The notes under the pieces are model-generated. The model saw nothing but the letters and a program-made list of their open reading frames with translations. It ran no database searches and was not told where the DNA came from. This document shows positions 1 through 15,678 of a stretch of 64,000 nucleotides of DNA, one piece after another. The DNA lies in NCBI GenBank assembly GCA_016212185.1, contig JACRGX010000056.1, positions 31,240-95,239 on the forward strand, read 5' to 3'. The stretch comes from Nitrospirota bacterium. Lineage in GTDB: Bacteria; Nitrospirota; Thermodesulfovibrionia; UBA6902; DSMQ01. The translations under genes and the position numbers were made by a program. The stretch's first letter is position 1. Every line of letters starts with the position of its first letter.

Positions 1-686
1 AGGATAACATTTATACAGAAAGTACATTTGTAACTGCACCCGATGCCGGTTATAATAGGATACACAAGGCAGTTTTTATATGCATCGCCATAAAAATCCT
101 CAACAGCTATTACATTATTTCTTGAATAACGTAGATGGTCTATCAAAGAAAAGTCCAAGGCAGGGATATTGCTGAGGTCATCTTTAACGGGGTTGGGGGG
201 GGTCTGTACTATTGAATGCTTCGCAGTCTTATAATATACTCCCGGAACTCCAGAGAGGTCCCCGCCTTCGGACAATGTCAAGCTTAGCGGGATAATCGTA
301 GCCGCCGCATCATTTACCACTACAATATCTACTGCCTTATCTTCAACGGTCTGCTCCGGGAAAAGTGTTGGGTGAACCCCTCCCCATACTATCACTGCAT
401 TGCTGTGTCTTTGCTTTATTGCCTGCGACACATGATATGCCCACGGCAGTTGCACAGTCATTACCGAAAAACCGACGAATATAACTCTTTCGTCAATTTC
501 TTTAAGAATAGAGTTTACAGCCTCATCAATCCTCTGATACCTGCCGTCAACCACAATGACTTGAAAACCTGCGTTATGGAGTATTGTTGCAAGAACCATT
601 ATTGCAGTATTCGGATAGGCGCCATATGACATAATCTCCTGAAAATGTGTGCCGGGGTTTACCAGAATTATCTTATTCTTCTTCAT
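1..686 (-). CDS. B12-binding radical SAM protein (N-terminal part; C-terminus lies beyond window start)
   Basis: Manual translation of minus strand from ATG at 684-686: MKKNKIILVNPG... Rossmann-like cobalamin-binding N-domain followed by GIGCSYKCTFC (CxxxCxxC). Open to position 1; not in ORF track because it runs off the window. Confidence 0.65.
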   Translation of the reverse strand, partial: MKKNKIILVNPGTHFQEIMSYGAYPNTAIMVLATILHNAGFQVIVVDGRYQRIDEAVNSILKEIDERVIFVGFSVMTVQLPWAYHVSQAIKQRHSNAVIVWGGVHPTLFPEQTVEDKAVDIVVVNDAAATIIPLSLTLSEGGDLSGVPGVYYKTAKHSIVQTPPNPVKDDLSNIPALDFSLIDHLRYSRNNVIAVEDFYGDAYKNCLVYPIITGIGCSYKCTFCINVI

Positions 687-2304
687 AGTATTTTCTGTGA
701 GTAAAAATTTTCATCTTAGATAAAAAAGTCTTTATAGTTAACTGCAACGCATAACCAATGCGTCCATGCCAGTAATACATTACAGCATAATCCTGTCTGT
801 TATGATTGCCTATATTCTGCTTGCAGCGTTCAATATCTTTTATGAAACTATACTCGCTGTAAAGTGATTCAATCAAATTCCTGCCCTCAGTTGTCATATT
901 GGATCTTATATAGCACCAGTAAAGCAACGGCACATAAGGCAGAAAAATCTCTCTGTTCATGCGCGGAGGATAATCGGCAAGCCATTCTCTTTCCATAGCC
1001 TGCAATTTCTCACCTCTTAAATATATCTTCCTGATCCAGAGGCTTTGCAGTATCCACTCCATATAACTGCCACGAAGCCATTTCTGCAGCAACAGGATAT
1101 CTTTAAGGTCAACCCTGCAGAGAAACAATTTTTCTATTTCATTTGAAAAAGGTATGCATGAAAATTTTTTATGTGCAAGTGACAATGCTTTTAAAGCCTG
1201 CGGCATACAGCCGGTAAACGCCCAAAAAATTGAGAGCAGTGACATTCTTTCCTCGGGTTTGTATAATTCTCCTTTATTCGCTATTTTCTTTATTCTGTCA
1301 AGGGTCTTCTCCAGCGCCAGTTCAGGGGAAACAGCAAGATGAGTTTTAAATATCGGGGCATAAACATCCATTTTTCTTTCTTCCACAATATGTAATATAT
1401 TTTTTATGTCCCCCCCGCTGTTTACTATCATATTGTCTAAAAGATTATGGAAAAATGTTTTCCTTCCCGCCGGCACTGCCACTACCGGCACATTTCTTTG
1501 CAGGGCATCTATAATCACCTGAGAGTTCCCACGGTTAAAAAGCACATCGGCAATGTCCAGAATATGATCTATGGGTGTATATTGATTTGCAATTTTTGCA
1601 TCAGGGGCATGCCTTTTTATAAATTCATAGATGTTTTTGTCCTGTTCGGCAGGATGGGGTTTAACAATAAGCTCATATCTCGCAGGCAGTCCTTTTGATA
1701 TGCACGCAAGCAGCTCTTTCCTGACTGCAGGAGTTTCTCCGCTTGGCGTCAGATATGCAAGACTCAGCACCGCTACGAGTTTGTTGTCGGATATCTTTAG
1801 TTCTTTTCTTAACGCTTCTTTCTTGTTTGAATCGGATGAATATAATTTTTTATACCTGAATACGCACCCAGTGGTTTCAACCACATCGCCGGGAACCCCT
1901 GTTTCAATAAACTTCTGCTGCTCATATTCCGACGCAACAAGCAAATGGTCAACAGGCAAAAAATATTCGTTTACAAAACCCTGCTCCAGCATCATCTGAA
2001 GTACCTCCTCAATTGCAATTACAGGAACTCCGAGCAGTGCAGCTTTCTGAATCAGATTGAGATGAGGCATTCTCGGTTGCGCTGAAAAGAGTATTAAAGC
2101 CTTTACATTGTCAAACAGCCCTTCCGGGGGATACCCGTCATTTAAAAAAAAGTTCCCGTTAATATGCCTTTTTTTATCAGAAAACCATTTAAGCTTAGGG
2201 TTATAAACACACTTTATATCCCATCCGGGCAGGAACTGCCTGAAGATTTCTATACTTCTATCGTGAACAATACTGACAGGATTAAAAAGAAGGGTATTCT
2301 TCAT
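673..2304 (-). CDS. TagF/Capsule_synth-like Rossmann-fold glycosyl- or phosphotransferase (putative)
   Basis: 543 aa ORF; motif LIVKPHPAEQ (KxHP-type motif of CDP-glycerol glycerophosphotransferase/capsule-synthesis families) followed by conserved C-terminal block; paralogous to 3 other ORFs in the locus. Confidence 0.4.
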   Translation of the reverse strand: MKNTLLFNPVSIVHDRSIEIFRQFLPGWDIKCVYNPKLKWFSDKKRHINGNFFLNDGYPPEGLFDNVKALILFSAQPRMPHLNLIQKAALLGVPVIAIEEVLQMMLEQGFVNEYFLPVDHLLVASEYEQQKFIETGVPGDVVETTGCVFRYKKLYSSDSNKKEALRKELKISDNKLVAVLSLAYLTPSGETPAVRKELLACISKGLPARYELIVKPHPAEQDKNIYEFIKRHAPDAKIANQYTPIDHILDIADVLFNRGNSQVIIDALQRNVPVVAVPAGRKTFFHNLLDNMIVNSGGDIKNILHIVEERKMDVYAPIFKTHLAVSPELALEKTLDRIKKIANKGELYKPEERMSLLSIFWAFTGCMPQALKALSLAHKKFSCIPFSNEIEKLFLCRVDLKDILLLQKWLRGSYMEWILQSLWIRKIYLRGEKLQAMEREWLADYPPRMNREIFLPYVPLLYWCYIRSNMTTEGRNLIESLYSEYSFIKDIERCKQNIGNHNRQDYAVMYYWHGRIGYALQLTIKTFLSKMKIFTHRKYYEEE

Positions 2305-3218
2305 TTAGCATTTTTCTTTAGATTATAATAAGCTGTATTTGTAGCGCCGACTTTAGAATTTTTTATCGTGGTGTATACCAGGACATCATCTCTTTTATGC
2401 AGCTGGTCGCATACATTACAAAAGGGAAACTTGTAAAAATTCCCTTCCTGGTGCGCCTGCCTGAACGCATTATACTCTTTGCTATGCAATACCTCGTGCA
2501 GAGTCTGTTTTTTAAAATCGCCTAAAACAATCTTGCTGTCATAATCAAAGCAGCAGGGAACCGCCAATCCGTCCCACTGCACCTGAACAGGCCCTGTAAA
2601 CGGACGGCCGCAGCTGGTTTTTTTCTCATCAAAGGGTCTGTATGTTCTTCCGTCTCCCCAGTTATGGGGCTTCCATACAGAAATGCCATCAGCTATTTCT
2701 TCATAACGCCTGAGAAAATCCTTCATCTCATGCTCATTTTCCGGCATTAATAAAAAATACATTTCTATCCTTAATTTACTGTTTTCCCTCCGGCGGGTCT
2801 CAAATAAATTCGCGACATTTTTACTGACATCTTCAAAAGACAGCCCTTTATGTATTCCTTCATAGGTTAACTTTGTTGTCCCGTACATGCTGATGCGTAT
2901 TTTATCAAACAGGTCTGCAACCTTTTCCGCCTTCTTTTCATCAAGAATGGAGCCGTTTGTTATGGTGTAAACCTCAAGTCCCTTTGATTTTGCATATTCA
3001 GCGCGCTCAAAGATATATGGATCCAGAAAGCTTTCCCCGTAATTTTCAAGCGAAACCAGCTTAGCCCCGCCGCCTACGGCTTCATCCAGAACTTTTTTAT
3101 AAAGGTTAAGGTCGAGGACGCCCTGGCGCCGTGTCATCCTCTCGCGCGGGCACATTATACATTTTGCATTACATTTGTTTGTTACTTCAAAACGTATTTC
3201 CGGGTTAATTAATTTCAT
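2301..3218 (-). CDS. radical SAM protein with C-terminal Cys-rich (SPASM/twitch-like) region
   Basis: N-terminal CNAKCIMCPRE (CxxxCxxC) radical SAM motif; C-terminal PCCFDYDS...CNVCDQ cysteine cluster. Confidence 0.7.
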   Translation of the reverse strand: MKLINPEIRFEVTNKCNAKCIMCPRERMTRRQGVLDLNLYKKVLDEAVGGGAKLVSLENYGESFLDPYIFERAEYAKSKGLEVYTITNGSILDEKKAEKVADLFDKIRISMYGTTKLTYEGIHKGLSFEDVSKNVANLFETRRRENSKLRIEMYFLLMPENEHEMKDFLRRYEEIADGISVWKPHNWGDGRTYRPFDEKKTSCGRPFTGPVQVQWDGLAVPCCFDYDSKIVLGDFKKQTLHEVLHSKEYNAFRQAHQEGNFYKFPFCNVCDQLHKRDDVLVYTTIKNSKVGATNTAYYNLKKNAK

Positions 3219-3278: not shown

Positions 3279-5189
3279 TTATTTTCTTATGAGCAGATCT
3301 TTGAAATAAGCGCTCAATTTTACTATTTCCTTATCATCAAAAACATGCTTTGCCCATACAGCTTCAGGCACTGTCCCATGAAAATGGTTTTTAATCAGCC
3401 AATTCAGCGCCCACGGGAAATTATCTGCCGAGTTCACATAATAGCATGAATCCGGCTCAGGCTTTGTCTCAGGAGCAAGTATCTGACATGGTATGTGGCA
3501 GTATTTACCTGTGGGATCATACTGCAAAACCGGAATTCTGTTTTGCAGGGCTTCTTCAATCGTTGTTGATGAGTAACTGACAAGCATGTCAGAGAGGGAC
3601 AGATACTCTTCAAACGACCCTTCGGTATGGATGTCGTAACAATCGGATTCAACCAATAAAGACTCTAAATCATTTTTTGATAAATAATCTTTCGGCCTGA
3701 ACCGGATAATTAAATGTAAATCACTAACTTTTTCCACAGCACTGATAAGTGAGTTCAGATTGCCGATATATTCATCCACTGTCTGATAAACATAAAATCT
3801 TAAATCATTATGCAGTCTGGGAGTATCGGCATGCAGTAGTATGATTTTATTTTCATACCCTCGAAGAAGTTTTTTTCTTAAAAGCACCCTCGTGTTTTCA
3901 TTTTTGTTAACCTTTGCAAAAAGTAGCGGACCTGTAATAATATGTGTGCTCCGTGTTGAAATCTCCTGAAGATATGCCCTTGCCCATGGAGATTGAACGG
4001 CAATATATTGATAGCGGGTATTCACTAAACCAAGACCGTGTTCCTTCCATTCCATCATCTCATACTGGTTTTTGGGAGGGACATGCGAACCATGTGAAAC
4101 CAGCAATGACGGTATATTATATAAAGAAGCGAGTTCACCGAGGTTATAATTCATAAACCTTGCCATCTGCGAAATAATAATTGCCGGTCTTAATTTCTTT
4201 AAAAACCCGTTTAGATGTAAGGTTTGATTATGTATATTAGAAATAGTGGAAACAATGTCGTCCCTGATTTTTTTAAATACTATCTCTTTAACGCTAATCC
4301 CTCTGTAGCTGAAAATTTCATCGCTGCCCGCTGATTCCCAAAGTCTTTGTACCGATTGATTTATTGTTTTTTTAAATCTTTTTTGTTTTTTGCCGCCAAT
4401 AACCGGCAAAGGGAAAAAAATATCTCCATCAGCCCTGAATAAAAAACTTAGTATTGAACTGGGATTTTTATCTGCCAAATAAAGCACACGGGCATCTGGC
4501 AATACCGGCATTAATTCATTGATGACCCTCTGAAAGTTATAACTCATTGACGGTGCAATAATAATTTGCCGGGCTTTAAGCAGACTGCTCATCGACAGTA
4601 TTAATTTATAGATAAGAAACTTACATAAATCAGAAGCATTTTTTTTAACCGCTCCGGCTGCCGGATTCCTGCTTATATGGACGCCCTGCATTAATTCATG
4701 TGCTATGCAGAGCTTTTCAGATATCCTCTTGCTGATAGTTCCTGCATATCCTTCGCTATCGGACAAATATGGATTAAGCGAATAGCTGCCGTCTCTTGAA
4801 AATGCGATTATTTGCTCAATATTCCAAAGTAAGCAGGCCCTGTAAATAATTTCAATAAGCCATAAAAAATAATGAATAAATGTTCTCAGGTAAAAGAGAA
4901 CGGTTATGTTATATCCCTGTGTTATTCTAAGTTCATCCTCTATCGTTAATAGAGATTCGCAGAATTTGTATATCTCATCCGATTTCAGTAATGCCTGTTC
5001 ATGCCCTTCTCTTCCAAAAAGTTCATAAGTGGTAAAAAAACGGATTCCATTGCGTTTTAACTGCAGTTGTGCCTCAGGGAGAATTGCAAGAACATAAGTG
5101 TCTTCCTTCCTTAGTTCCTCAATAGACCTCCGGGCGATGAAGGAATCTACTTCGTCTTTGAATTCAAATATGATAAGGGTTCTGCTCAA
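3279..5189 (-). CDS. hypothetical protein, TagF/Capsule_synth-like C-terminal domain
   Basis: 636 aa; C-terminal IIRFRPKDY...SYSSTTIEEAL pattern parallels KxHP paralogs 673-2304, 12548-14632, 14632-15678. Confidence 0.3.
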   Translation of the reverse strand: MSRTLIIFEFKDEVDSFIARRSIEELRKEDTYVLAILPEAQLQLKRNGIRFFTTYELFGREGHEQALLKSDEIYKFCESLLTIEDELRITQGYNITVLFYLRTFIHYFLWLIEIIYRACLLWNIEQIIAFSRDGSYSLNPYLSDSEGYAGTISKRISEKLCIAHELMQGVHISRNPAAGAVKKNASDLCKFLIYKLILSMSSLLKARQIIIAPSMSYNFQRVINELMPVLPDARVLYLADKNPSSILSFLFRADGDIFFPLPVIGGKKQKRFKKTINQSVQRLWESAGSDEIFSYRGISVKEIVFKKIRDDIVSTISNIHNQTLHLNGFLKKLRPAIIISQMARFMNYNLGELASLYNIPSLLVSHGSHVPPKNQYEMMEWKEHGLGLVNTRYQYIAVQSPWARAYLQEISTRSTHIITGPLLFAKVNKNENTRVLLRKKLLRGYENKIILLHADTPRLHNDLRFYVYQTVDEYIGNLNSLISAVEKVSDLHLIIRFRPKDYLSKNDLESLLVESDCYDIHTEGSFEEYLSLSDMLVSYSSTTIEEALQNRIPVLQYDPTGKYCHIPCQILAPETKPEPDSCYYVNSADNFPWALNWLIKNHFHGTVPEAVWAKHVFDDKEIVKLSAYFKDLLIRK

Positions 5190-5200: not shown

Positions 5201-6574
5201 CTAAACTGACTTCCCTGCCTGCCGGTCAGGCGGGTGAATCCAGAAATCAATAAGCCTTTCCGCCATTCTAAAGTCTTCTTCCTCTCTCACTTCAAGCGGC
5301 GAGTAAGGGTTGTTCACCGCGTAAATGCCTATTTTTTCGCCGAGCAGGGAGCCTTCGCGAATAAATTCAGGATGCGTGACTGAACACAGCCCTTTGATTC
5401 CGATAAATGAAGGTTCTTTGTATTTTCGCGGGATATCGCCTTTGTCTATTCTCTCAATTTTATTATCTTCCTGCTTCCATATAGACCTGTATTCGGTTCT
5501 GGCGGCAATAACGCTGTCCAGTCCTTCTTTAATTAATTGCTCTATTATGCTGTCTATGAGCTTTTTGGTCCTGAAAGGGAATGTCTCCTCAAGATAGACG
5601 ATAATATCAGGAAATATTTTTTGCTCTTCAAGCTTATTCAAAGAATACTGAAGCACCTTCTCAATATCAACAAAATCTCTTGAGAGCGCTTCATCTCTTA
5701 CAAACGGGGCGCTTGCTCCAAGAGTTTTTACAAGCTTTGCAAGCTCATGGTTATCCGTAGACACTATTACCTCTTTGATGTATTTTGATGCAAGCGCCTG
5801 TTCAATGGTATACCCTATAAGAGGCTTGCCTTTAAGATAATTAATCTTCCCCTTTACAGGTATAACAGCCATAATCCTGAGGTTTTTAATATCTACATGT
5901 ATATTGTTTTTTGTCTCCGGATTCAGCGATTCAAGTATATTCACCACACTTGCACACCTTTTCTTGTCTCCGCCCTGGTGAATGCCATGGTAGTGGTAAA
6001 CACTCGCATGAGGTTCATACACAATTACATATCCCTTTTGAAGCATTTTTTCCGCCCATATCCTGTCCTCAATATTCGCAGCCGTCTCGTCAAAAGGCAT
6101 CTCATTCCATGCTGATTTCCTTAGAATGCTGTTTGCATTGTGGAAAAAACTGTCTTTTTTCTGAACTCTCCGGTCCATGCCGAATATTATTGAGAGGTCT
6201 CTCTTATCTATATCCGGCGTATAGGCAAGCGGTTCCTGCCGTCCGTACACTCCAACCACTTTCGGGTCGTCAAAATTATTTAATAAACTTGACAGCCATT
6301 TTTCGTCAATAGGAATACAGTGGCCTGAAAGGCAGACAATATAATCTCCTCTGGATTCCCGTATCCCCATATTAAGGGCAAGCCCGGGTCTGTAGTCCTT
6401 GCACGTTATGACCTTTGCAATATTAAACTGCTGTGCCTTCTCAATTGTCTTGTCCGTGCTCTCATTATCAACTACAATAACTTCAAAATCAGTGAAATCC
6501 TGTTTGAATACCCCCATCAGACACGAGGTTATCCATCTTTCCTCATTTTTAGTCCTGATAATAATAGATACCAT
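5201..6574 (-). CDS. bifunctional GT2 glycosyltransferase / acylneuraminate-cytidylyltransferase-like protein
   Basis: N-term MVSIIIRTKNEERW...VVDNESTD (GT2 DxD region); C-term MAVIPVKGKINYLKGKPLIGYTIEQA... resembles CMP-NeuAc synthetase fold. Confidence 0.55.
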   Translation of the reverse strand: MVSIIIRTKNEERWITSCLMGVFKQDFTDFEVIVVDNESTDKTIEKAQQFNIAKVITCKDYRPGLALNMGIRESRGDYIVCLSGHCIPIDEKWLSSLLNNFDDPKVVGVYGRQEPLAYTPDIDKRDLSIIFGMDRRVQKKDSFFHNANSILRKSAWNEMPFDETAANIEDRIWAEKMLQKGYVIVYEPHASVYHYHGIHQGGDKKRCASVVNILESLNPETKNNIHVDIKNLRIMAVIPVKGKINYLKGKPLIGYTIEQALASKYIKEVIVSTDNHELAKLVKTLGASAPFVRDEALSRDFVDIEKVLQYSLNKLEEQKIFPDIIVYLEETFPFRTKKLIDSIIEQLIKEGLDSVIAARTEYRSIWKQEDNKIERIDKGDIPRKYKEPSFIGIKGLCSVTHPEFIREGSLLGEKIGIYAVNNPYSPLEVREEEDFRMAERLIDFWIHPPDRQAGKSV

Positions 6575-6714
6575 TCTTATCTAAATTCCTCTCGAATAAA
6601 AGAATTCATTGTAAATTTAACAATGCAAATTTAGCATTTAAAATTTGAAATGTTAATTGATAATTTTGCAATTTAAAATGTTCAGCATTATTTCTCTGCG
6701 TTCTCTGTAGTAAA

Positions 6715-7434
6715 TTACTTTTTTGAGGTTTTGACTATTTCATCATACTGAATCACATAACCGCCGGATGATGCCTTTGCCCTCATTACATAGTCTGCAA
6801 GCATGATGTCTTCCTTTGTTTTGATAATAATAGCCGTTTCTTTGCTCACCGGATGATATCCGATTTTGCCACAGAACAATGCGTGTCCATTTTTTTCAAA
6901 TGCGTCAATAAAGGTCTTGTTCTTCCACATCATAATTGAATACACAAAAGGCTGGACAGGCATCAAGTCCTGTGTCTGGGCGAAAATTTCATCAGTTTTA
7001 AAATTTACAGGGCTGCCTTTAAAAATACAGTGAACTTGTTCATTCTTAACAGTTATGAGGGTATCAAGATTTTCTTTAATGAAATAGTCTATAACTTCCT
7101 TTATCTCTTCGCCTGTCTGCAAGGGAGATGTCGGGTTAACCCATGCAACAATATCCGAAGGGTGCTTTAGCATAAAATCATATACAACATTATCTGATTT
7201 TGTAGCAGATGAACCGAGGTCTTTCGGCCTTAGATAAAATTCAACGCTGTATCTTCTGGCAATATCGGAAAATATTTCATCATCAGAATTAACAACTACC
7301 CTGCTGAAAACACCTGAAGCCTTTGCCGCCTCAATAGCATAGGAAATAAGGGGCTTCCCGTTTATAAGGGCAAGGTTCTTCATCTTAAGACGCGTACTGC
7401 CTATCCTTGCCGGAATCATAGCTATAATATTCAT
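6715..7434 (-). CDS. CMP-nonulosonic acid synthetase (acylneuraminate cytidylyltransferase family, NeuA/PseF/LegF-like)
   Basis: NIIAMIPARIGSTRLKMKNLALINGKPLISYAIEAA matches NeuA N-terminal IPARxGSKxxxxKN signature. Confidence 0.8.
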   Translation of the reverse strand: MNIIAMIPARIGSTRLKMKNLALINGKPLISYAIEAAKASGVFSRVVVNSDDEIFSDIARRYSVEFYLRPKDLGSSATKSDNVVYDFMLKHPSDIVAWVNPTSPLQTGEEIKEVIDYFIKENLDTLITVKNEQVHCIFKGSPVNFKTDEIFAQTQDLMPVQPFVYSIMMWKNKTFIDAFEKNGHALFCGKIGYHPVSKETAIIIKTKEDIMLADYVMRAKASSGGYVIQYDEIVKTSKK

Positions 7435-8668: not shown

Positions 8669-9889
8669 TTATTCTCCTCCCTGTTTATAATTAGATTTTA
8701 TATTTATCCATTTGCCGTTCCCGGCAAGACTCTTATTTACAGCTTCAATAATTGCAGTGGGGATAATGGAGTCCTTAAATGTCGGCCGTTTGCCTTCAAG
8801 TCCGGCAATTTTTACTGTCCCCGATTCAATAGCGCATACATCAGCGAGGAATTGAAGCACGCTCTCAATCCCATACCCGCGAAATGATACATCTCCGGCA
8901 GCAGTTCCGTACATAGAACAAAAATCAGGATTCGGCTCTTCTATTCCATTTCCATCTGTGATTATGCGTATCCCGCGATTTTTTTGGTCCGCTTCATAAC
9001 GCCCCTTTGTCCCAATCACTTTTATCTTCTGGTCAGACATCGCAGAGGTGTTTTCAGGGTCGATCCAGTTGGTAAAAAAGGAAGATGTGAAAACAGCGCC
9101 TGAGGGCATTTCCCATTCAATAACAGCCTGAATAGAATCATATGTATCAATGCCTTTTGAAATAAGGAATCTTTTCTGTCCTGTTGCCATTACCCTGAGA
9201 GGAATGGCTTTTGTCGCAAAATAAATTATATCAACATAGTGAACACCGAGATATTGGAATATGTTAGCCGTCTCAACCCAGCCCTTAAATCTTTCAGTCG
9301 GAATGCTTTTTCGCTGGCTGTATTCCACTATAAAATATAAAGGGGTACCGATTTTGCCGCTTGAAATGGCATCTTTTAATTTAAGGTTTGAACGGTCAAA
9401 CCGTTTATGAAATTCCACTGCTCCATAAACATTATGCCCTTGCTGAAGTTCAACGAGTTCCAATGTTTCCTTTAAGGCAGGCGCAAGAGGCTTTACTACA
9501 AGGGTATGCAAACCATTTTCAATAGTATCGCCTGCAATCTTTCGGTGAAGATTGTCAGGGACCGCCACAATGGCGCAGGCCGGTTTAGGAATATCCTTTA
9601 TTGCCTTCTTGTATGCGTTTACATCACTGTCTCCGGCACCGGGGTAATATCTTAAATTAACCTTAATACCTGTTAATTTGCTGAGTTCCACGGATTTTTT
9701 CTTTAAAATATTGATGCCCTTTGGATTTGTTCCGGCTATATAAACATCCCCGGCTTTCCCTTGTTTTTTCCATTCATAAATTGCAGGCAGTATCGTACCG
9801 TAACCATCTGTACCTCTCCCGCACACATACATGCCGGTGCCGATAACAAGGATGTTGAGGTTTTTGGGAGAAACAACAGTTTTTTTCAT
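8669..9889 (-). CDS. Gfo/Idh/MocA-like NAD(P)-dependent oxidoreductase (putative sugar dehydrogenase)
   Basis: N-terminal LNILVIGTGMYVCGRG Rossmann motif, about 400 aa two-domain layout. Confidence 0.45.
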   Translation of the reverse strand: MKKTVVSPKNLNILVIGTGMYVCGRGTDGYGTILPAIYEWKKQGKAGDVYIAGTNPKGINILKKKSVELSKLTGIKVNLRYYPGAGDSDVNAYKKAIKDIPKPACAIVAVPDNLHRKIAGDTIENGLHTLVVKPLAPALKETLELVELQQGHNVYGAVEFHKRFDRSNLKLKDAISSGKIGTPLYFIVEYSQRKSIPTERFKGWVETANIFQYLGVHYVDIIYFATKAIPLRVMATGQKRFLISKGIDTYDSIQAVIEWEMPSGAVFTSSFFTNWIDPENTSAMSDQKIKVIGTKGRYEADQKNRGIRIITDGNGIEEPNPDFCSMYGTAAGDVSFRGYGIESVLQFLADVCAIESGTVKIAGLEGKRPTFKDSIIPTAIIEAVNKSLAGNGKWINIKSNYKQGGE

Positions 9890-9893
9890 CGTT

Positions 9894-10349
9894 CTATACC
9901 CTGACCTTTACTACGATTTTTCTTACATGCCCGGGTTTATCAATAAAACAGCCTGGCATATGCGCATCCGCCGGATAAAATACGGCAAATATCCCCGGCG
10001 TCAAGATAAGTTGAGACCTACCTTCAGCGTCATGATAAAAAATCACATCTTTGTCCTCTGAGTACGGCGTCATTATTCCCAATTCATAGACAGGCAGCCA
10101 TCCAATTGCCTCTCTGCCTGAAACAATATATTGTATATCAATATATTGTCTGTGACTTTCAAATTTCTTAGTTTCCAGTGCATCTGTGCAGTAACTCTGC
10201 ACCATTGCATATATTTCATCACCTATAATATCATACCGCCCGTCAGGAGTATTCTCATTGAACACTTCAGTTATAAATTTGAAACCTTTATACATATCCG
10301 ATTCTTTATTAAAATAACCGCCCCAGTTTTCAATCCGGTCTAATATCAT
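9894..10349 (-). CDS. YhcH/YjgK/YiaL (DUF386) cupin-like protein
   Basis: 151 aa; family is associated with sialic-acid (nonulosonic acid) operons; FYPADAHMP cupin-like segment. Confidence 0.45.
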   Translation of the reverse strand: MILDRIENWGGYFNKESDMYKGFKFITEVFNENTPDGRYDIIGDEIYAMVQSYCTDALETKKFESHRQYIDIQYIVSGREAIGWLPVYELGIMTPYSEDKDVIFYHDAEGRSQLILTPGIFAVFYPADAHMPGCFIDKPGHVRKIVVKVRV

Positions 10350-11171: not shown

Positions 11172-12518
11172 CTATTTATCCGGCTTATCCGCCATAAAGT
11201 ATGATAAAGCCCCTTTCCATGCACTCAGTTCAAAAACGGCCATCCACGGCATGGGGTAAAGCCTGTTAACAAACATCCATGTAAGAATAAAAAAGGTAAG
11301 ATAAGCAAGGAAAGTTGCCTGCGCCGCACCAATGGCTCCATTAATCCTAATTAGTGCAAAGTTGGCGGCAACTGCCACCAGCCCCGACAGGAGTGTTATC
11401 CATGCAAGCAGATATGTCTTCCTTGAGAATGTGATGAATATCGCGAGAAGCCGGTACATTGCAAAGGCAACCTGCGACATTGCTATCCAGAAAATAAATA
11501 CCCCTGCACCGTAAAACCTCTCCCCCACAAGAAGCCTGAGGATGTAAGGGCCCGCCATTGATATAACAAATGCCGCCAGAATAAAAACGGCCAGATATAT
11601 GATAAAAAAGCAGACGAATTTTTTCTTCCCATTATCTTCATCCTTTCCAAGCATTCTATATATATGCGGGGAAACAGCATTGTCAAACGGAGCGGCAAGC
11701 ATAATGATAACTGTGCCAAATGTATATCCGACATTATAAACACCCAGTGTTTCCATCCCAAACATGGCATTTAAAAAAAACTTATCAATAGTCCCTATCA
11801 TCATAAGCCCGAGAGAATGAGGGAACAGCGGGAAGCCGAAAATTGCCACCTCTCTGAAATATTGCTTATTCAGCCGGAAATGCAGCCCGTCCTCTTTCAG
11901 AAGAAAGTAGAAACTAATCCCGAAGAAAATGATTTCAGCCATAATTATTCCGGCTATTCTTCCGCGCCAGTCAAACCAGAAAAAGGATATCATCAGGAAG
12001 GATAACCCTATATTCAGAAACGATTTGGCAACCAGAGTCGTCCCGTAGTGCAAAGGCTTTTCCTGATATATCCATAATTTAGCTTTGAAATTTCCAAATG
12101 ACGAAAAAAGCGCAAGCAGTGGAACAAACCATACCCACAGAACAGGAAAGTGCAGTTTATCTGAAATGACGCCCTGCAAAAAACACAGCAGTATTGCAAC
12201 AATAAAAAACAGCGCCAGATTGAATGCCATCGCATTAAATATGTAGCCCGGGAAGTCAAACCCTTTTTGATTCCTGTCAACCTGCGCCCTGCAGACAGCC
12301 CCGGCAGACGACATGGTTACCGCCGGCTCCATATTAGACCTGATGGCATTGAACGTTCCGATATAGCCATAATCGGCAGGCGTCAGCCAACGCGTCAGAA
12401 TTGGCAGAAAAACGAAAGGGACGGCCATATTGATTGTATTGCTGACCAGATAGATGCTGCTTGAAAGAAAAAATTTTTTTATATTTTCAGATAAATTCAT
12501 ATCTCTAAATCTGTCCAA
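11172..12518 (-). CDS. Wzx-like oligosaccharide/polysaccharide flippase (MOP superfamily)
   Basis: 448 aa, about 12-14 predicted TM helices, polysaccharide biosynthesis protein architecture. Confidence 0.65.
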   Translation of the reverse strand: MDRFRDMNLSENIKKFFLSSSIYLVSNTINMAVPFVFLPILTRWLTPADYGYIGTFNAIRSNMEPAVTMSSAGAVCRAQVDRNQKGFDFPGYIFNAMAFNLALFFIVAILLCFLQGVISDKLHFPVLWVWFVPLLALFSSFGNFKAKLWIYQEKPLHYGTTLVAKSFLNIGLSFLMISFFWFDWRGRIAGIIMAEIIFFGISFYFLLKEDGLHFRLNKQYFREVAIFGFPLFPHSLGLMMIGTIDKFFLNAMFGMETLGVYNVGYTFGTVIIMLAAPFDNAVSPHIYRMLGKDEDNGKKKFVCFFIIYLAVFILAAFVISMAGPYILRLLVGERFYGAGVFIFWIAMSQVAFAMYRLLAIFITFSRKTYLLAWITLLSGLVAVAANFALIRINGAIGAAQATFLAYLTFFILTWMFVNRLYPMPWMAVFELSAWKGALSYFMADKPDK

Positions 12519-12547: not shown

Positions 12548-14632
12548 TTACACGACCTTGTCACTGCCCCATTTCTCGGAATATCTTCGCCTGCTTTCGG
12601 CTATAACATCCTCTCTGCTTAATCCAGCCTCAAAACCTTCAAGGCACCATCTTAGACACTCAGAGATACGTTCTGATGAAGCGCTGTCCATGAAAGGGTC
12701 CAGTATCTCATGAACCGCGCTGCAGTCGCCAAATCCGTCAAATCCGCCTTCTATATGCTTATGCAACGAGCCGAGCAATAACGGCATGCTGTCAAAGATG
12801 CAGATGTTTTTAAGGTTCTGCTGATAAAAAATACCCCTTATTGTCCTTAGAGGGTTAAACACAGCCGTGCGTTTTCCGCAGCATATGGATGTAAACATCG
12901 CGGTGGAAGGAAGACTGACTGCCATGTCAGCTACCTTTGACGAAAGCGTGACAGTGGTAAAAGGGTCCAGGATAAAACATCGCCGCTTTTCAACCAGAGA
13001 TTTAAAACCTTTCAATATATCCGCAGGCATGCGGCTGAAAAATTTCTCTTTCTTGGGTTTTATTACAACTGAGTATCCGCCCCTTTCCTCCATATCATTG
13101 AACAAGGTGCGGTAAAAATCAAAAATAACATCCCTGCCGTATATAAACCCGGGTTCATCAAAAACTGCTATCAGCGGACCGTTTTCAAAAGCGCCCATAT
13201 CTTTCAATTTGTCTTTAAGAAGATTAACCTGTTCACTAAGAGCTTCACTGTCCATCTGGTCATGATAGTAGCCGCTGATGACTTTATTAATGGCTTTATC
13301 CGGGTCAATAACCTGGCTAAGACTGTAACTGCCGGATAAAAAGGATACATTTGCCGGCCTGTCATCATAATATGAATGATTGCTGTATACCATGCTTCGT
13401 TCCACAAGGGCATTTATGCCGCCTGCCATCTCCATGGCAACCGCCCTCTGGTATATTTCAGCTCCGTAGGCGTCTTCAACATAAACTTTTATACTGTTTG
13501 ACATGAAATAGTCATACCACCATGCAACCCCTTTCAGTAAAAAAGCCGTCTGTACGTATGTCCAGAGGCGCTTGCGGCTGAACAGTATAATGTTTATCAG
13601 AAACAGACCCAAAAGCTTTAGAGACTTTGTAAGAATAATTTCATAATAAAGACCCGTCGGCTTCCATAGAGGGAATGAACCTTCTTCTGTGCCGGCATAA
13701 CCTCTTCTCCTTCCGTGGACTTTCATTTGAAGCCTGCCCGCCAACTCAAATTCCGCGTCGGTCGGCTGACGGTAGTCATTCTCCCAAAGACCTGCCAGAT
13801 GTGCGGGACTAAGCGCCCTTCCCCAAGCCCAATTAAGGTTGTTGCGCATATCAGGGGAAATTCCGTCAGAAATACTTGTAGCGATATAATAACCGAATAT
13901 TTTATGCGGCGCACCTGATGTTGAGATTTTTCCAAGAAAAGGGGCAATAAAAGGCAGCTGCGTTTCTGCCCGCTTATTCCTTACCAAATTGTTATCATGG
14001 GATTTATTAAGAAAAATTTTATTGAATATCTTTTCCGCATACCACGATGTAAAACCGGGATAACCGCCTCCGACAATCACTGCAAAAGGCATCTCCCTCA
14101 AATAAACTGCCAGTTCTTTCCCCCACCAGTTTGCCGGTACAAATAAAATGAACTCCTCTTTATCATCAGTTTTGCTCTTAGCCTGCCGCGATAAAATGTA
14201 AAATGCAAGATAGACAGCGGCTTCTATTTCCTGTGCAATCCTGAATTCTATGTATGCGGGTACAAATAAGCCGGCACTCAGTCCCGGCACAAGTGAACTG
14301 AAAGCATTTCTGTGTTCATTGGAAGAAACAATTTTTTTTGCTAATTGTATCACGGTATCATTTGCCCTTTCCCTGAGATTGTTACCGTTCTCATCGCAAA
14401 GCTCCTTTGCCGGAAGCGCATTAGGGCTGCAGGCAAGTCTCCTGGCGGTAATTTTTCTGGGAAATACTCTTGTCAGTAATGCAACCAGATGCTCAGCAAT
14501 AAAGTTTGCTTTCCAGTAGACAATCTCTAAAGAATTATATCTAAGGCAGACCTGCATTATGCGGATAAACAGCGATAATGAGATAAAAACAAAAACTATC
14601 GAACAGCGCCTGCCCCTGACCGACTTATGCAT
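12548..14632 (-). CDS. large hypothetical protein with TagF/Capsule_synth-like C-terminal domain
   Basis: 694 aa; C-terminal VVIKPKKEKF...STAMFTSICCGKR parallels KxHP paralogs. Confidence 0.3.
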   Translation of the reverse strand: MHKSVRGRRCSIVFVFISLSLFIRIMQVCLRYNSLEIVYWKANFIAEHLVALLTRVFPRKITARRLACSPNALPAKELCDENGNNLRERANDTVIQLAKKIVSSNEHRNAFSSLVPGLSAGLFVPAYIEFRIAQEIEAAVYLAFYILSRQAKSKTDDKEEFILFVPANWWGKELAVYLREMPFAVIVGGGYPGFTSWYAEKIFNKIFLNKSHDNNLVRNKRAETQLPFIAPFLGKISTSGAPHKIFGYYIATSISDGISPDMRNNLNWAWGRALSPAHLAGLWENDYRQPTDAEFELAGRLQMKVHGRRRGYAGTEEGSFPLWKPTGLYYEIILTKSLKLLGLFLINIILFSRKRLWTYVQTAFLLKGVAWWYDYFMSNSIKVYVEDAYGAEIYQRAVAMEMAGGINALVERSMVYSNHSYYDDRPANVSFLSGSYSLSQVIDPDKAINKVISGYYHDQMDSEALSEQVNLLKDKLKDMGAFENGPLIAVFDEPGFIYGRDVIFDFYRTLFNDMEERGGYSVVIKPKKEKFFSRMPADILKGFKSLVEKRRCFILDPFTTVTLSSKVADMAVSLPSTAMFTSICCGKRTAVFNPLRTIRGIFYQQNLKNICIFDSMPLLLGSLHKHIEGGFDGFGDCSAVHEILDPFMDSASSERISECLRWCLEGFEAGLSREDVIAESRRRYSEKWGSDKVV

Positions 14633-15678
14633 TATTTCAACTTGGATAAAACAAGACCGGCAACAGCGTCAACGGCGCCCCTGTGGTCAGGGGCTGATGC
14701 CTTAACCTCTTTCCAATCCCCCAGGTAACCGTGCCCTGCAAGATAATTCCAAAGCCTAGGCAGGAGAAATGAATTCTCCGGACTCCATCCTGAAAGAAAC
14801 GGCTCAACATTATATGTGGGAACCCCATATGCAACGCTTAACTGCGTAAACATTGAGGTAAGCCCGTAAACCCTGTCTGATATGCCGAGTACCGTCATCT
14901 CATCAGCCTCTTCAAATCCTATCCGCCTGAGTCTGTTATCAACCTTGTTTTTTTCATTTGGATGCGGCCTGACCAGAATAAGCACGTCTTTTCCTTCTTT
15001 TTCAACTATTTTTGCTTTTAAAGCAACACCCCCTGCATCCATATCAAACAGGCTGCCGCATCCTGCATCGCACGGCTCATAAAATGAGTGGCTATGGATA
15101 ATCTCTGACGCCAGAAAACAGACTTCTTTATCTTCTGGAATGCTTAGCTTTTTTTTTGTTTCTGTTTTCACTTTCTCAGACATTTTGGTCAAACTGCATT
15201 TTTCAAGATAGGGATGACCGGTAACCACAAGCTTGTCTTCAGGCATTCCCATATCAGCCAGCGCTGTTTTTGCGGCACTGTCCATCACCGCAAGTATATC
15301 CGGCATGTCATGCGTCAGCCCTCCGTCAGGTTCCAAAAATCTCTCAAGACCTTTGTAGTTGTCCAGAAAAGCAATACTAAACAGCCCCCTCTTTCCGGCT
15401 TCTCTAAAGATTTCCCGGTTAATCGTGTGTTTTGGATGACCATAGCCTGTCAATAAGAGGCTGAACTCTTTTGCAGGGAAATCCACCCAGCTCATGATTT
15501 TACTGTAATGTTTTTTATATACGATGTCTGACGGCGGTAGGGCATAAATATCTAACATAAGACCGGCTGACATCAATTTTCCAATAACCGGGATCAGTGC
15601 AGCAGCTGAACCTGCCTGCTGTGAAAAAATAAGTATGGATTTATCCGCTGCCTGTCTCAAGTTTTCTGAGTTCATCAA
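14632..15678 (-). CDS. TagF/Capsule_synth-like Rossmann transferase (putative)
   Basis: LILVRPHPNEKNK (RPHP) motif; 348 aa. Confidence 0.35.
   Translation of the reverse strand: MMNSENLRQAADKSILIFSQQAGSAAALIPVIGKLMSAGLMLDIYALPPSDIVYKKHYSKIMSWVDFPAKEFSLLLTGYGHPKHTINREIFREAGKRGLFSIAFLDNYKGLERFLEPDGGLTHDMPDILAVMDSAAKTALADMGMPEDKLVVTGHPYLEKCSLTKMSEKVKTETKKKLSIPEDKEVCFLASEIIHSHSFYEPCDAGCGSLFDMDAGGVALKAKIVEKEGKDVLILVRPHPNEKNKVDNRLRRIGFEEADEMTVLGISDRVYGLTSMFTQLSVAYGVPTYNVEPFLSGWSPENSFLLPRLWNYLAGHGYLGDWKEVKASAPDHRGAVDAVAGLVLSKLK

What the first reader, a model, noticed from the sequence alone, without database searches (positions are those of the whole stretch)
673..15678. Four paralogous TagF/Capsule_synth-like proteins with K/R-P-H/K-P motifs
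ORFs 673-2304 (KPHP), 3279-5189 (RPKD), 12548-14632 (KPKK) and 14632-15678 (RPHP) share a C-terminal Rossmann block. It resembles CDP-glycerol glycerophosphotransferase and KpsC/KpsS beta-Kdo transferase folds. Next to an ulosonic-acid pathway they are candidates for retaining ulosonic-acid transferases or polymerases. Two show degenerate motifs and may be non-catalytic.
Basis: inference. Interest (0 to 1): 0.5.

Follow-up and report, generated by a model that had tools for sequence, protein, structure and literature searches.

The report
Four distant GT-B sugar-pathway enzymes
Four genes in a surface-sugar operon of an uncultured Nitrospirota bacterium encode very distantly related two-domain (GT-B) enzymes: three are probably sugar transferases that use cytidine-activated donors, and the fourth is more likely a missing biosynthetic step for a sialic-acid-like sugar. 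This is a useful annotation, not a new kind of system.

Summary
The four ORFs are real genes (A 673-2304, B 3279-5189, C 12548-14632, D 14632-15678, all minus strand), and the quoted tetrapeptides are present. They are not close paralogs. Pairwise BLASTP finds nothing, and each has its own orthologous family (67, 49, at least 810 clusters, and about 25 sequences).

A and B keep conserved synteny with KdsB/NeuA-type cytidylyltransferases and radical-SAM enzymes. They are probably cytidine-nucleotide-dependent transferases, as is C.

D sits in a cassette found in about 15 metagenome loci (cytidylyltransferase, oxidoreductase, aminotransferase, D), often beside NeuB. It best fits the missing NDP-sugar hydrolase/2-epimerase step. 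Moderate interest.

The parts
673..2304 (-). Protein A (543 aa). GT-B domain (about residues 1-335) plus a conserved helical C-terminal extension (about 340-543). Probable cytidine-nucleotide-dependent glycosyltransferase.
   Evidence: 67 full-length homologs, none with a Pfam domain. Family profile hits the GT28 diacylglycerol glucosyltransferase 9wde at E 5.7e-7 over residues 119-342. Sub-threshold hits to Glyco_trans_1_4, Glyphos_transf, Capsule_synth, polysialyltransferase and Kdo-transferase models. Start codon overlaps the upstream rSAM stop (ATGA).
1651..1662 (-). A motif K215-P216-H217-P218
   Evidence: K215, H217 and P218 are each 67/67 in the family. Coordinates translate to KPHP. 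Aligned by hhalign to D RPHP and C KPKK.
2005..2010 (-). A residues E99-E100 at the end of an N-domain strand, a candidate catalytic acid/base. H14 (2263-2265) is also conserved, 64/67.
   Evidence: E100 66/67, E99 59/67, H14 64/67. By position this resembles the D/E-D/E-G motif of sialyltransferases (PMC5420450), but this is inference only.
3279..5189 (-). Protein B (636 aa). GT-B fold with a TagF-like motif set. Probable transferase.
3693..3704 (-). B motif R496-F497-R498-P499. This is the true equivalent of KPHP, with Arg in place of His.
   Evidence: R496 48/49, R498 49/49, P499 49/49, while K500 and D501 are variable. The A-B hhalign register puts H217 opposite R498 and P218 opposite P499. 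The strand (491-496) followed by this motif is seen in the AF2 secondary structure.
4089..4097 (-). B residues S365-H366-G367, positionally like TagF W443-H444-G445 (the catalytic His). Also H453-A-D-T-P-R458 (3816-3833), like TagF Y543-A-P-T-W-R548.
   Evidence: H366 97%, G367 100%, H453 89%, T456 93%, P457 95%. The TagF sequences were recovered from PDB 3l7i. The equivalence is by position and order only, not by superposition.
12548..14632 (-). Protein C (694 aa). GT-B fold, TagF/TarL-like, and a member of a large uncharacterised family. It is followed by a Wzx-type flippase gene.
13049..13060 (-). C motif K525-P526-K527-K528, with Lys in place of His.
   Evidence: K525 147/151, K527 146/151, and D492 147/151 lies 35 residues upstream. 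hhalign places K527 opposite A H217.
14632..15678 (-). Protein D (348 aa). Compact GT-B protein. Best candidate for the NDP-sugar hydrolase/2-epimerase step (the LegG/NeuC/PseG slot) of nonulosonic-acid synthesis. The alternative is a CMP-sugar transferase.
   Evidence: The cassette CTP_transf_3, GFO/IDH, DegT, D (then often GNAT, WbuX and amidase) recurs in about 15 loci, often next to NeuB. Epimerase_2 is hit weakly by 4 of 5 members, best E 3.5e-6. Family profile against PDB: UDP-GlcNAc 2-epimerase 4neq E 0.0035, TarL 0.018. The stop overlaps C's start codon by 1 nt (TAATG).
14959..14970 (-). D motif R237-P238-H239-P240
   Evidence: Invariant in the 6 close homologs. In the 19-sequence family P240 is invariant and H239 at least 90%. 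Aligned with the HP of the 4neq epimerase.
5201..7434 (-). Context: CTP_transf_3 cytidylyltransferase (6715-7434) and a GT2-CTP_transf_3 fusion (5201-6574), immediately upstream of B.
   Evidence: Pfam and NCBIfam. The order CTP3, GT2-CTP3, B is conserved in L003/L004, L005 and L009, and partly in L001 and L008. The fusion is 60-72% identical across loci, against 29-51% for B.
2301..3218 (-). Context: radical SAM/SPASM enzyme upstream of A. A B12-binding radical SAM gene lies downstream of A (before position 670, cut by the window end).
   Evidence: Pfam. The triad rSAM-SPASM, A, B12-rSAM is conserved in L001/L002, L007, L008 and L009 (Omnitrophota and Planctomycetota MAGs). The neighbours are 57-63% identical, against 36-45% for A.
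15641..17939 (-). Context: DegT aminotransferase (15641-16936) and GFO/IDH oxidoreductase (16929-17939), upstream of D.
   Evidence: Pfam and NCBIfam. Synteny.
28920..33935 (-). Context: NeuB-type synthase (32901-33935), WbuX amidotransferase (31729-32874), amidase (30330-31703), GNAT (29784-30323) and KdsB-like CTP_transf_3 (28920-29738). These are the partners that are contiguous with D in other loci.
   Evidence: Contiguity with D in L013, L014, L022, L027, L034, L035 and L037.
11172..12518 (-). Context: Wzx-type flippase directly downstream of C.
   Evidence: Polysacc_synt, E 1.1e-16. 40% identical ortholog follows the C homolog in L003.

Best explanation
The four ORFs encode four anciently diverged members of the GT-B (double Rossmann) superfamily. 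They belong to the branch that contains TagF/TarL, UDP-GlcNAc 2-epimerases and the CMP-sugar (sialyl/Kdo) transferases.

They share one C-domain nucleotide site (shown by alignment). After strand C-beta-1 comes a conserved acidic or T-P-[KR] loop. After strand C-beta-2 comes basic-x-(H/K/R)-P. About 40-50 residues later comes a D-x6-7-[ST][ST] helix N-terminus.

By analogy with solved CMP complexes (inferred), the first basic residue contacts the cytosine, the Pro or neighbouring residue stacks on it, and the His contacts the phosphate. In B that His is Arg, and in C it is Lys.

A, B and C are most likely cytoplasmic transferases (inferred). They would take cytidine-nucleotide-activated acidic sugars, made by the four KdsB/NeuA-type cytidylyltransferase domains of the operon and further modified by radical-SAM, methyl- and oxidoreductase enzymes. 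They would add these sugars to a lipid-linked glycan that the adjacent Wzx exports.

D is most likely not a transferase (inferred from synteny and pathway completeness). It more probably removes the nucleotide from the NDP-diamino-hexose, with or without 2-epimerisation. That would supply the NeuB-type synthase, filling the LegG/NeuC/PseG slot for which the operon has no other candidate.

For: Motif register. TagF's real sequence (R582-M-H584-Y, W-H444-G, YAPTWR, DYSS) was recovered from PDB.

Meaning of the motif. PMC12887879 describes (K/R)XHP as shared by sialyltransferases and retaining Kdo transferases: Lys/Arg contacts the cytosine, Pro stacks on it and His contacts the phosphate.

Precedent for TagB-like NulO transferases. 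Knock-out of Tanf_01245/BFO_1060 removes the terminal sugar (PMC5420450). A and B weakly hit that NCBIfam model around the motif (E about 0.005).

Donor supply. The operon has four CTP_transf_3 domains and one NeuB, and no TagD- or IspD-type enzyme.

Synteny. CTP3, GT2-CTP3, B and rSAM, A, B12-rSAM recur across Nitrospirota, Omnitrophota, Planctomycetota and Brocadiaceae. A and B diverge faster than their neighbours, as acceptor-specific transferases usually do. C is followed by Wzx.

D. The cassette recurs in about 15 loci. D diverges at the same rate as its cassette partners. Weak Epimerase_2 hits recur. No other Epimerase_2- or PseG-like gene is present in the operon or in the sampled loci.
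Against: No protein reaches any curated Pfam or NCBIfam cut-off, so family assignment rests on remote homology.

Motif equivalences with TagF are positional. hhalign of a single TagF fragment against each family lands in the expected register but is not significant.

The donor identity is inferred from gene neighbourhood only.

D carries a full R-x-H-P motif and is 98% hhalign-related to A. It could equally be a CMP-sugar transferase dedicated to the product of its cassette. The cassette's GFO/IDH oxidoreductase has no place in the canonical Pse/Leg pathways.
Confidence: 0.6

Rival explanations
1. One reading: all four are KpsC/KpsS/WbbB-like retaining ulosonic-acid transferases or polymerases that work by double displacement through an Asp nucleophile. 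B and C would be degenerate, possibly non-catalytic, copies.
For: A and D carry the (K/R)XHP motif (PMC12887879). Sub-threshold Capsule_synth hits occur in 6 of 34 A-family members. KpsC chains appear at E 0.06-0.46 with the D-family profile. The operon encodes a ulosonic-acid pathway.
Confidence: 0.08
2. B and C, and perhaps A, are true TagF-type phosphotransferases. They would polymerise alditol- or sugar-phosphate units from CDP-activated donors, giving a teichoic-acid-like or Hib-capsule-like phosphodiester polymer in a Gram-negative environmental bacterium.
Against: The operon has no CDP-glycerol or CDP-ribitol synthase (TagD/TarI/IspD type). All four cytidylyltransferase domains are of the KdsB/NeuA type, which makes CMP-ketoacid sugars. 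The phosphate-contacting His584 equivalent is not His in B or C. C lacks the WHG His, having [EQ]-R-S instead. No protein reaches the Glyphos_transf cut-off.
Confidence: 0.15
3. D is a CMP-sugar glycosyltransferase. Its cassette would activate an ulosonic acid (CTP_transf_3), oxidise and transaminate it on the CMP handle (GFO/IDH plus DegT), and D would then transfer the amino-ulosonic acid.
For: D has a full R-x-H-P motif. It is 98% hhalign-related to A, itself a likely transferase. TarL, KpsC and SiaD appear among its weak PDB profile hits. It always travels with a cytidylyltransferase. It is translationally coupled to C in this window.
Against: Under this reading the operon and the related loci have no enzyme to free the hexose for NeuB. 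D's best weak hits are 2-epimerases. D evolves at the pace of its pathway partners rather than faster. It is often placed between DegT and GNAT, like pseG/legG in known clusters (the last point is from established knowledge of Pse/Leg clusters).
Confidence: 0.35
4. None of the four is a transferase. All are sugar-nucleotide 2-epimerases or hydrolases of parallel ulosonic-acid pathways.
Against: The window has only one NeuB-type synthase. A, B and C are 540-700 aa with large extra domains, unlike the roughly 370-aa epimerases. B carries the TagF-type motif set. A's best PDB hit is a glycosyltransferase. A and B diverge faster than their neighbours. Without them the operon would have very few glycosyltransferases for so many activated sugars.
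Confidence: 0.07

Closest known systems
TagF / TarL CDP-alditol phosphotransferases (Pfam PF04464; PDB 3l7i, 8va1) and the TagF-like capsule polymerases Bcs3 and Cps3D
   Different: No member reaches the Pfam cut-off. The His584 equivalent is Arg in B and Lys in C. A, C and D lack the WHG His. The operon supplies KdsB/NeuA-type (CMP-sugar) rather than CDP-alditol donors. The N-terminal regions are unrelated.
Tannerella forsythia nonulosonic-acid transferases Tanf_01245 / TFUB4_00887 / BFO_1060 (NCBIfam NF046086), and B. subtilis SpsB
   Same: TagB-like GT-B proteins with an HP motif, encoded beside Pse/Leg biosynthesis genes. Knock-out removes the terminal NulO (PMC5420450). The B. subtilis sps cluster combines SpsA (GT2), SpsB (TagB-like) and SpsF (CTP_transf_3) (PMC7439481), which resembles the arrangement GT2-CTP_transf_3 followed by B here.
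   Different: Only a marginal model match (A and B, 16 bits against a cut-off of 200). Different size and domain composition. No biochemical data exist for either side.
Retaining ulosonic-acid transferases GT99 (WbbB), GT107 (KpsC/KpsS), GT118 (KpsS1) and GT140 (KrkA)
   Same: [quoted passage not shown] Ulosonic-acid context.
   Different: No QXXXD nucleophile motif. No reduced N-domain or helical-subdomain architecture is indicated. These families are not among the top 60 structural neighbours of B or C.
UDP-GlcNAc 2-epimerase family (Pfam PF02350), including the hydrolysing NeuC/LegG enzymes, and the UDP-sugar hydrolase PseG
   Same: GT-B fold without transferase activity. An HP motif at the same position (alignments). 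The same pathway slot as proposed for D. They are among the best weak sequence hits for D and high structural neighbours of B and C.
   Different: D scores 14 bits against a cut-off of 30.6. The GDT Asp and the SGG-QEE/TERPE signatures recalled for the family are not evident in D (from memory, not tested). D lacks PseG's N-terminal catalytic His.
Bacterial sialyltransferases GT38, GT52 and GT80 (D/E-D/E-G plus HP motifs)
   Different: No significant sequence match. There is no Gly after the acidic pair. The A structure was not modelled.

Membership tests
TagF-like CDP-glycerol/ribitol phosphotransferases (PF04464) | Scores above the Pfam gathering threshold | tested here: not met
   D scores 14.0 bits against a cut-off of 22.1. 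Best E among A-family members is 0.0016 (7 of 34). One of 48 C members hits at E 0.056. B has no hit.
TagF-like CDP-glycerol/ribitol phosphotransferases (PF04464) | GT-B fold with TagF/TarL as closest solved structures | tested here: met
TagF-like CDP-glycerol/ribitol phosphotransferases (PF04464) | Catalytic His of the W-H-G motif (TagF H444) | tested here: inconclusive
   The TagF motif was verified from PDB. B has near-invariant S-H366-G367 at the corresponding strand end. A has E99-E100, D has L-D106 and C has [EQ]-R-S. No superposition was possible.
TagF-like CDP-glycerol/ribitol phosphotransferases (PF04464) | Phosphate-binding His of R-x-H584-Y | tested here: inconclusive
   Met in A (H217 67/67) and D (H239). 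Replaced by R498 in B (49/49) and by K527 in C (146/151).
TagF-like CDP-glycerol/ribitol phosphotransferases (PF04464) | A cognate CDP-alditol synthase (TagD/TarI type) in the locus | tested here: not met
   Pfam scans of 29 operon genes found only CTP_transf_3 cytidylyltransferases.
Retaining beta-Kdo/ulosonic transferases GT99/GT107/GT118/GT140 | (K/R)XHP CMP-binding motif | tested here: inconclusive
   Exact in A and D. Variant in B (RFRP) and C (KPKK). Motif definition from PMC12887879.
Retaining beta-Kdo/ulosonic transferases GT99/GT107/GT118/GT140 | QXXXD motif (Asp nucleophile) about 35 residues upstream of HP | tested here: not met
   A column scan of all four family alignments finds no Q/D pair upstream. 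The only one (A Q262/D266) lies 45 residues downstream.
Retaining beta-Kdo/ulosonic transferases GT99/GT107/GT118/GT140 | Modified GT-B with a reduced N-domain and helical subdomain, and structural proximity to KpsC/WbbB | tested here: not met
UDP-GlcNAc 2-epimerase family (PF02350), including NeuC/LegG | Scores above the Pfam gathering threshold | tested here: not met
   D scores 14.1 bits against a cut-off of 30.6. Four of 5 D-family members hit weakly, best E 3.5e-6.
UDP-GlcNAc 2-epimerase family (PF02350), including NeuC/LegG | Occupies the NDP-sugar hydrolase/epimerase slot of a NeuB-dependent pathway, with no competing candidate | tested here: met
   Cassette synteny in about 15 loci. 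No other Epimerase_2- or PseG-like protein is present in the operon or in the sampled loci. This is contextual evidence, not biochemical.
UDP-GlcNAc 2-epimerase family (PF02350), including NeuC/LegG | Catalytic acidic residues of the N-domain and hydrolase/epimerase activity | not testable with these tools
   D has invariant D106, D127 and D133, but equivalence to the epimerase catalytic residues could not be established without a model.
BFO_1060-family NulO transferase (NCBIfam NF046086) | Scores above the NCBIfam cut-off | tested here: not met
   A and B score 16.1 bits each against a cut-off of 200. The match is confined to the motif region.
TIGR04326 surface carbohydrate biosynthesis protein (LIC13510 family) | Scores above the NCBIfam cut-off | tested here: not met
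   A scores 28.2 bits (E 5.9e-7) against a cut-off of 250, matching only profile positions 397-548.

The most novel reading that the evidence does not exclude
The B and C families are unrecognised TagF-like transferases or polymerases in which the phosphate-contacting His is permanently replaced by Arg or Lys. C has at least 810 clusters at 50% identity, and both families occur in Nitrospirota, anammox Planctomycetota, Omnitrophota and relatives. Together with A they would be the missing enzymes that attach or polymerise CMP-activated, radical-SAM-modified nonulosonic or other keto-acid sugars into the acidic surface polymers and EPS of uncultured environmental bacteria. That would make them founding members of new glycosyltransferase families. 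D would found a new LegG/NeuC-analogous hydrolase family.
Probability: 0.2. Interest if true: 0.6.

Novelty: new variant of a known kind. Interest (0 to 1): 0.35.

Why it matters
Nonulosonic acids are widespread in environmental bacteria and in granular-sludge EPS (PMC8053191, PMC10483923). Very few enzymes that transfer them are known (PMC5420450 says so explicitly).

This analysis gives four concrete, conserved and mostly un-annotated protein families tied by synteny to cytidylyltransferases and NeuB. It provides a corrected motif register and near-invariant residues to mutate: C K527 and B R498. It also names a specific candidate, D, for the missing hydrolase/epimerase step.

The result improves annotation of a recurrent glycan module in Nitrospirota, anammox bacteria and Omnitrophota. 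It does not reveal a new principle.

Tried and rejected
- Pairwise BLASTP among the four proteins found nothing significant.
- Pfam and NCBIfam on the single proteins gave nothing above any cut-off.
- PDB profile searches for the B family, the small D family and the C family were uninformative.
- The genome-contig scan with C-family alignments failed. Two alignments were too diverse and the third found patterns but no relatives. The taxonomic spread of C in reference genomes is therefore unknown.
- The afdb50 fold library was unavailable.
- A literature search for 'PFTS' (the name of Pfam PF27878) returned nothing relevant.
- Cluster names for C-family members are all 'hypothetical'.
- I tested whether the 821-aa no-Pfam protein (26433-28898) is a fifth member. 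It is a polytopic membrane protein unrelated to the four.
- hhalign of a single TagF fragment against each family lands on the expected motifs but is statistically insignificant, so it is used only as a register check.
- I considered and rejected 'recent paralogs by duplication': each protein has its own deep orthologous family and distinct conserved neighbours.


Full report
**Origin and setting**

The window comes from a Nitrospirae/Nitrospirota MAG. The four ORF products are identical to NCBI hypothetical proteins HZA10_06040, _06050, _06090 and _06095 on a 133-kb contig.

All four lie in one long minus-strand operon, from about 38.9 kb down past position 1. It opens with an HTH regulator and a NusG-like protein. 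It then encodes:
- SDR dehydratases;
- a NeuB-type synthase;
- a WbuX amidotransferase, an amidase and a GNAT;
- four CTP_transf_3 (KdsB/NeuA-type) cytidylyltransferase domains, two of them fused to GT2 domains;
- several B12-binding and SPASM radical-SAM enzymes;
- methyltransferases;
- a PgfS/ArnC-like polyprenyl-phosphate glycosyltransferase;
- a Wzx flippase;
- GFO/IDH and Ldh_2 oxidoreductases and a YhcH/DUF386 protein.

**Check of the observation**

The ORFs are at the stated coordinates. I call them A (673-2304, 543 aa), B (3279-5189, 636 aa), C (12548-14632, 694 aa) and D (14632-15678, 348 aa). The quoted tetrapeptides are present at residues 215, 498, 525 and 237.

Pairwise BLASTP finds no significant similarity between any two of them (best E 0.05). 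No protein reaches a curated Pfam or NCBIfam threshold. At the level a reader could see, the resemblance is only the short motif. Whether it means anything had to be tested with profiles and structures.

**Each protein has its own family**

| Protein | Homologs found | Main lineages | Pfam status |
|---|---|---|---|
| A | 67 full-length | Omnitrophota, Elusimicrobiota, Planctomycetota, Dehalococcoidia | none |
| B | 49 | Brocadiaceae, Scalindua and others | none |
| C | 810 clusters at E<=1e-3 among 50%-identity representatives | not determined | none in the local library |
| D | 5 at first; 25 loci after a metagenome scan | mostly metagenome contigs of unknown lineage; two homologs are Nitrospirae | none |

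They are therefore not recent paralogs.

**Remote homology is nevertheless real**

| Pair | hhalign probability | E-value |
|---|---|---|
| D-A | 96.6% | 6.6e-10 |
| D-A (19-sequence D alignment, 270 columns) | 98.0% | 1.7e-13 |
| C-A | 93.9% | 1.6e-7 |
| C-B | 81.4% | 1.2e-5 |
| C-D | 61.7% | 7.7e-5 |
| A-B | 16.9% | 1.5e-3 |
| B-D | not significant | |

Family HMMs also cross-hit in a small ORF database. The A HMM hits D, the D HMM hits distant A members, and the C HMM hits B.

**Fold**

The A-family profile matches a solved GT28 diacylglycerol glucosyltransferase (9wde) at E 5.7e-7 over residues 119-342. It also matches WbpI-type 2-epimerases at E 0.014, with the HP residues aligned.

AlphaFold2 models of B (pLDDT 89.5, pTM 0.91) and C (pLDDT 90.1, pTM 0.91) are confident.

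- C: TagF 17.8, TarL 17.4, then 2-epimerases 15.9 and 15.5, Bcs3 15.1.

Foldseek for B ranks NeuC, other 2-epimerases, VldE and CalG1 first, at E about 5e-8.

All four are thus GT-B proteins of the TagF / 2-epimerase / CMP-sugar-transferase neighbourhood. TagF is the nominal best match. Only for C is there any gap to the next family. KpsC and WbbB do not appear in the top 60 for either model.

**The motif, put in register**

I recovered real TagF sequence from the PDB by phmmer:
- 439-YIQTWHGTPLKRLANDM. H444 is in W-H-G, and entry 3l7j is the H444N mutant.
- 537-DKKVIMYAPTWRDDEF.
- 569-LYKELGDDYVILLRMHYL...ISDCLITDYSSVMFDY. H584 is in R-M-H-Y, and entry 3l7m is the H584A mutant.

The four proteins show the same arrangement, a hydrophobic strand followed by the motif:

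| Protein | Strand and motif |
|---|---|
| TagF | YVILL-RMHY |
| A | YELIV-KPHP |
| D | VLILV-RPHP |
| C | YSVVI-KPKK |
| B | HLII-RFRP |

This register is the one given by hhalign for A-D, A-C and A-B. It fits the AF2 strands (B 491-496, C 521-524).

Conservation over all collected homologs:

| Family | Residues | Conservation |
|---|---|---|
| A | K215, H217, P218 | 67/67 each |
| D | R237, H239, P240 | invariant in the close set; P240 invariant and H239 >=90% in 19 sequences |
| B | R496 / R498 / P499 | 48/49, 49/49, 49/49 |
| B | K500, D501 | variable |
| C | K525 / K527 | 147/151, 146/151 |

The variants in B and C are fixed family signatures rather than decay.

About 40-50 residues downstream, all four have the D-x6-7-[ST][ST] element of TagF (SD-x-LITDYSS):

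| Protein | Downstream element |
|---|---|
| B | SDMLVSYSSTTIEE (Y539, S540, S541, T542 and E546 97-100% conserved) |
| C | ADMAVSLPSTAMF |
| A | ADVLFNRGNSQVIID (S261 67/67) |
| D | SDRVYGLTSMF |

B additionally has H453-A-x-T-P-[KR] (compare TagF Y-A-P-T-W-R) and S-H366-G367 (compare W-H444-G), all about 90-100% conserved.

An hhalign of the TagF fragment against each family lands on these same registers but is not significant on its own.

**What the motif means**

A 2026 structural paper on the Kdo transferase KrkA (PMC12887879) states that (K/R)XHP is conserved among sialyltransferases (GT29, 38, 42, 52, 80) and retaining Kdo transferases (GT99, 107). The Lys/Arg hydrogen-bonds the cytosine, the Pro stacks on it, and the His contacts the CMP phosphate. 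TagF binds CDP-glycerol with the same element.

A and D match the motif exactly. In B and C a cationic side chain replaces His, which remains compatible with phosphate binding (inference).

**Gene neighbourhood**

Three conserved modules emerge.

1. CTP_transf_3, then GT2-CTP_transf_3 fusion, then B.
 - Found in this window, two Brocadiaceae contigs, L005 and a Planctomycetales MAG, and partly in Omnitrophota contigs.
 - The fusion protein is 60-72% identical across these loci, while B is only 29-51%.

2. Radical-SAM/SPASM, then A, then B12 radical-SAM.
 - Found in the window and in Omnitrophota and Planctomycetota contigs.
 - The neighbours are 57-63% identical, A 36-45%.
 - A's start overlaps the rSAM stop (ATGA).

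3. GFO/IDH, then DegT, then D.
 - In this window and in L005 this is followed by C, and in this window (and in the Brocadiaceae locus L003) C is followed by Wzx.
 - D's stop overlaps C's start by one base (TAATG).

A and B evolve faster than their neighbours. That pattern is expected for acceptor-specific transferases working with conserved donor-making enzymes.

In a Brocadiaceae locus, another CTP_transf_3 gene is followed by a 619-aa protein carrying L-K-T-H-P. It is 87% hhalign-related to the A family. The pairing of a cytidylyltransferase with an HP-motif GT-B protein is therefore a recurrent theme.

The operon contains no TagD/TarI/IspD-type CDP-alditol synthase.

There is experimental precedent for TagB-like GT-B proteins acting as nonulosonic-acid transferases. 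Knock-out of T. forsythia Tanf_01245/BFO_1060 removes the terminal Pse/Leg derivative (PMC5420450). A and B weakly touch that NCBIfam model at the motif.

The B. subtilis sps cluster likewise combines a GT2 (SpsA), a TagB-like protein (SpsB) and a CTP_transf_3 enzyme (SpsF) (PMC7439481).

**D is different**

Enlarging the D family through a metagenome scan showed a four-gene cassette: KdsB-like CTP_transf_3, GFO/IDH oxidoreductase, DegT aminotransferase and D.
- It recurs in about 15 independent loci.
- It is commonly continued by GNAT, WbuX and amidase, and is often adjacent to NeuB.
- These are the genes that in this window sit at 28.9-33.9 kb.

With the SDR dehydratase at 35395-36393, the operon has one gene for each canonical step of a Pse/Leg-type pathway: dehydratase, aminotransferase, N-acetyltransferase, synthase and CMP-synthetase. 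The one exception is the NDP-sugar hydrolase or hydrolysing 2-epimerase (PseG / LegG / NeuC), which in known pathways is itself a GT-B protein.

No other gene of the operon, and none of ten unassigned ORFs sampled from related loci, resembles Epimerase_2 or PseG.

D-family members give repeated weak Epimerase_2 hits (4 of 5, best E 3.5e-6). The family profile's best PDB hit is a UDP-GlcNAc 2-epimerase (4neq, E 0.0035), with TarL, CapG, KpsC, MurG, TagF and SiaD following at E 0.02-0.6.

D also diverges in step with its cassette partners. For example, D is 28% identical where DegT is 41%, GFO 25-29% and CTP3 29-34%.

I therefore favour D as the missing hydrolase/epimerase, at roughly 55-60%. 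The rival, at about 35%, is that D transfers the cassette's CMP-activated amino-sugar. That rival fits D's exact R-x-H-P motif, its clear homology to A, and the unexplained GFO/IDH partner.

**Verdict**

| Point | Verdict |
|---|---|
| ORFs, motif strings and shared C-terminal Rossmann block | Confirmed |
| Close paralogy | Not confirmed |
| B's motif register | Corrected to R496-F-R498-P499 |
| GT-B / TagF-like fold, and ulosonic-acid transferase candidates (A, B, C) | Supported as the best inference |
| KpsC-like retaining chemistry | Not supported |
| 'Degenerate / non-catalytic' B and C | Not supported |
| D as a transferase | Probably wrong |

These are new, largely un-annotated families within a well-known enzyme superfamily. 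They carry an interesting fixed replacement of His by Lys or Arg in the nucleotide-phosphate position. The finding is useful for annotating nonulosonic-acid glycan loci of uncultured bacteria, whose transferases are mostly unknown (PMC5420450, PMC8053191, PMC10483923). It is not conceptually surprising.

Noticed in passing
window 26433-28898 (-): An 821-aa protein with no Pfam or NCBIfam hit. It is strongly hydrophobic and polytopic with a soluble C-terminal part, and lies directly after the KdsB-like cytidylyltransferase. It may be a GT-C-type or YfhO/polymerase-like membrane glycosyltransferase. It could partner the PgfS/ArnC-like polyprenyl-phosphate glycosyltransferase at 18814-19758.
   Followed up: partly
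window 5201-6574 (-) and 33966-35384 (-): Two fusion proteins, each an N-terminal GT2 glycosyltransferase joined to a C-terminal CTP_transf_3 cytidylyltransferase. The first is 60-72% identical across Nitrospirota, Brocadiaceae, Planctomycetales and Omnitrophota loci, far more conserved than its neighbour B. Its function is unknown. It may couple activation and transfer of one sugar.
   Followed up: partly
window 1-670, 2301-3218, 20680-22161, 23771-25015, 25018-26427 (all -): Five radical-SAM genes in one glycan operon: three B12-binding (HpnJ/BchE/P-methyltransferase-like) and two SPASM/twitch-type. The operon also has four SAM methyltransferases. This suggests heavy C-methylation or other radical modification of the sugars. 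The triad rSAM-SPASM, A, B12-rSAM is conserved across phyla.
   Followed up: partly
window 36406-37596 (-): A protein matching UDP-sulfoquinovose synthase (NF041015) at E 1.9e-170, 567 bits, just under the 575-bit cut-off. It lies at the head of the operon and hints at a sulfonated sugar in the glycan.
   Followed up: no
window 7590-10349 (-): Ldh_2-family dehydrogenase, a 406-aa GFO/IDH oxidoreductase and a YhcH/DUF386 protein (a family linked to sialic-acid handling) lie upstream of the PseF-like cytidylyltransferase. GFO and Ldh_2 are 49-70% identical in Brocadiaceae and L005. This may be a second module that modifies a keto-acid sugar.
   Followed up: no
window 37760-38886 (-): An HTH (MarR/HTH_24) regulator and a NusG-like protein (probably an operon-specific antiterminator) open the roughly 39-kb operon.
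   Followed up: no
L003 12101-19074 (Brocadiaceae MAG JALDQZ010000004.1): Next to the B homolog lies a run of genes: an HMGL-like enzyme, a ferredoxin-like protein, a HAD phosphatase, an HpcH/HpaI aldolase, a CTP_transf_3 enzyme and a 619-aa L-K-T-H-P GT-B protein. It looks like an aldolase-based route to another CMP-activated keto-acid with its own transferase.
   Followed up: partly
L014 9703-11334: A PEP-mutase fused to a nucleotidyltransferase domain, plus an ABC exporter, lie downstream of a D cassette. Phosphonate decoration may accompany this glycan in some relatives.
   Followed up: no
window 12548-14632, residue T581 of C: In 84% of 151 C-family sequences this position, five residues after the S-T pair, is Glu, the usual ribose-binding acid of GT-B enzymes. 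The window's C and its closest relatives have Thr. This is a subfamily-specific change in the nucleotide site.
   Followed up: no
L013 5992-7017 and 12517-13017: One metagenome contig carries two D-family genes. One lies directly after NeuB and one after GFO/IDH and DegT. This could mean the family has split into two roles, for example hydrolase and transferase.
   Followed up: no
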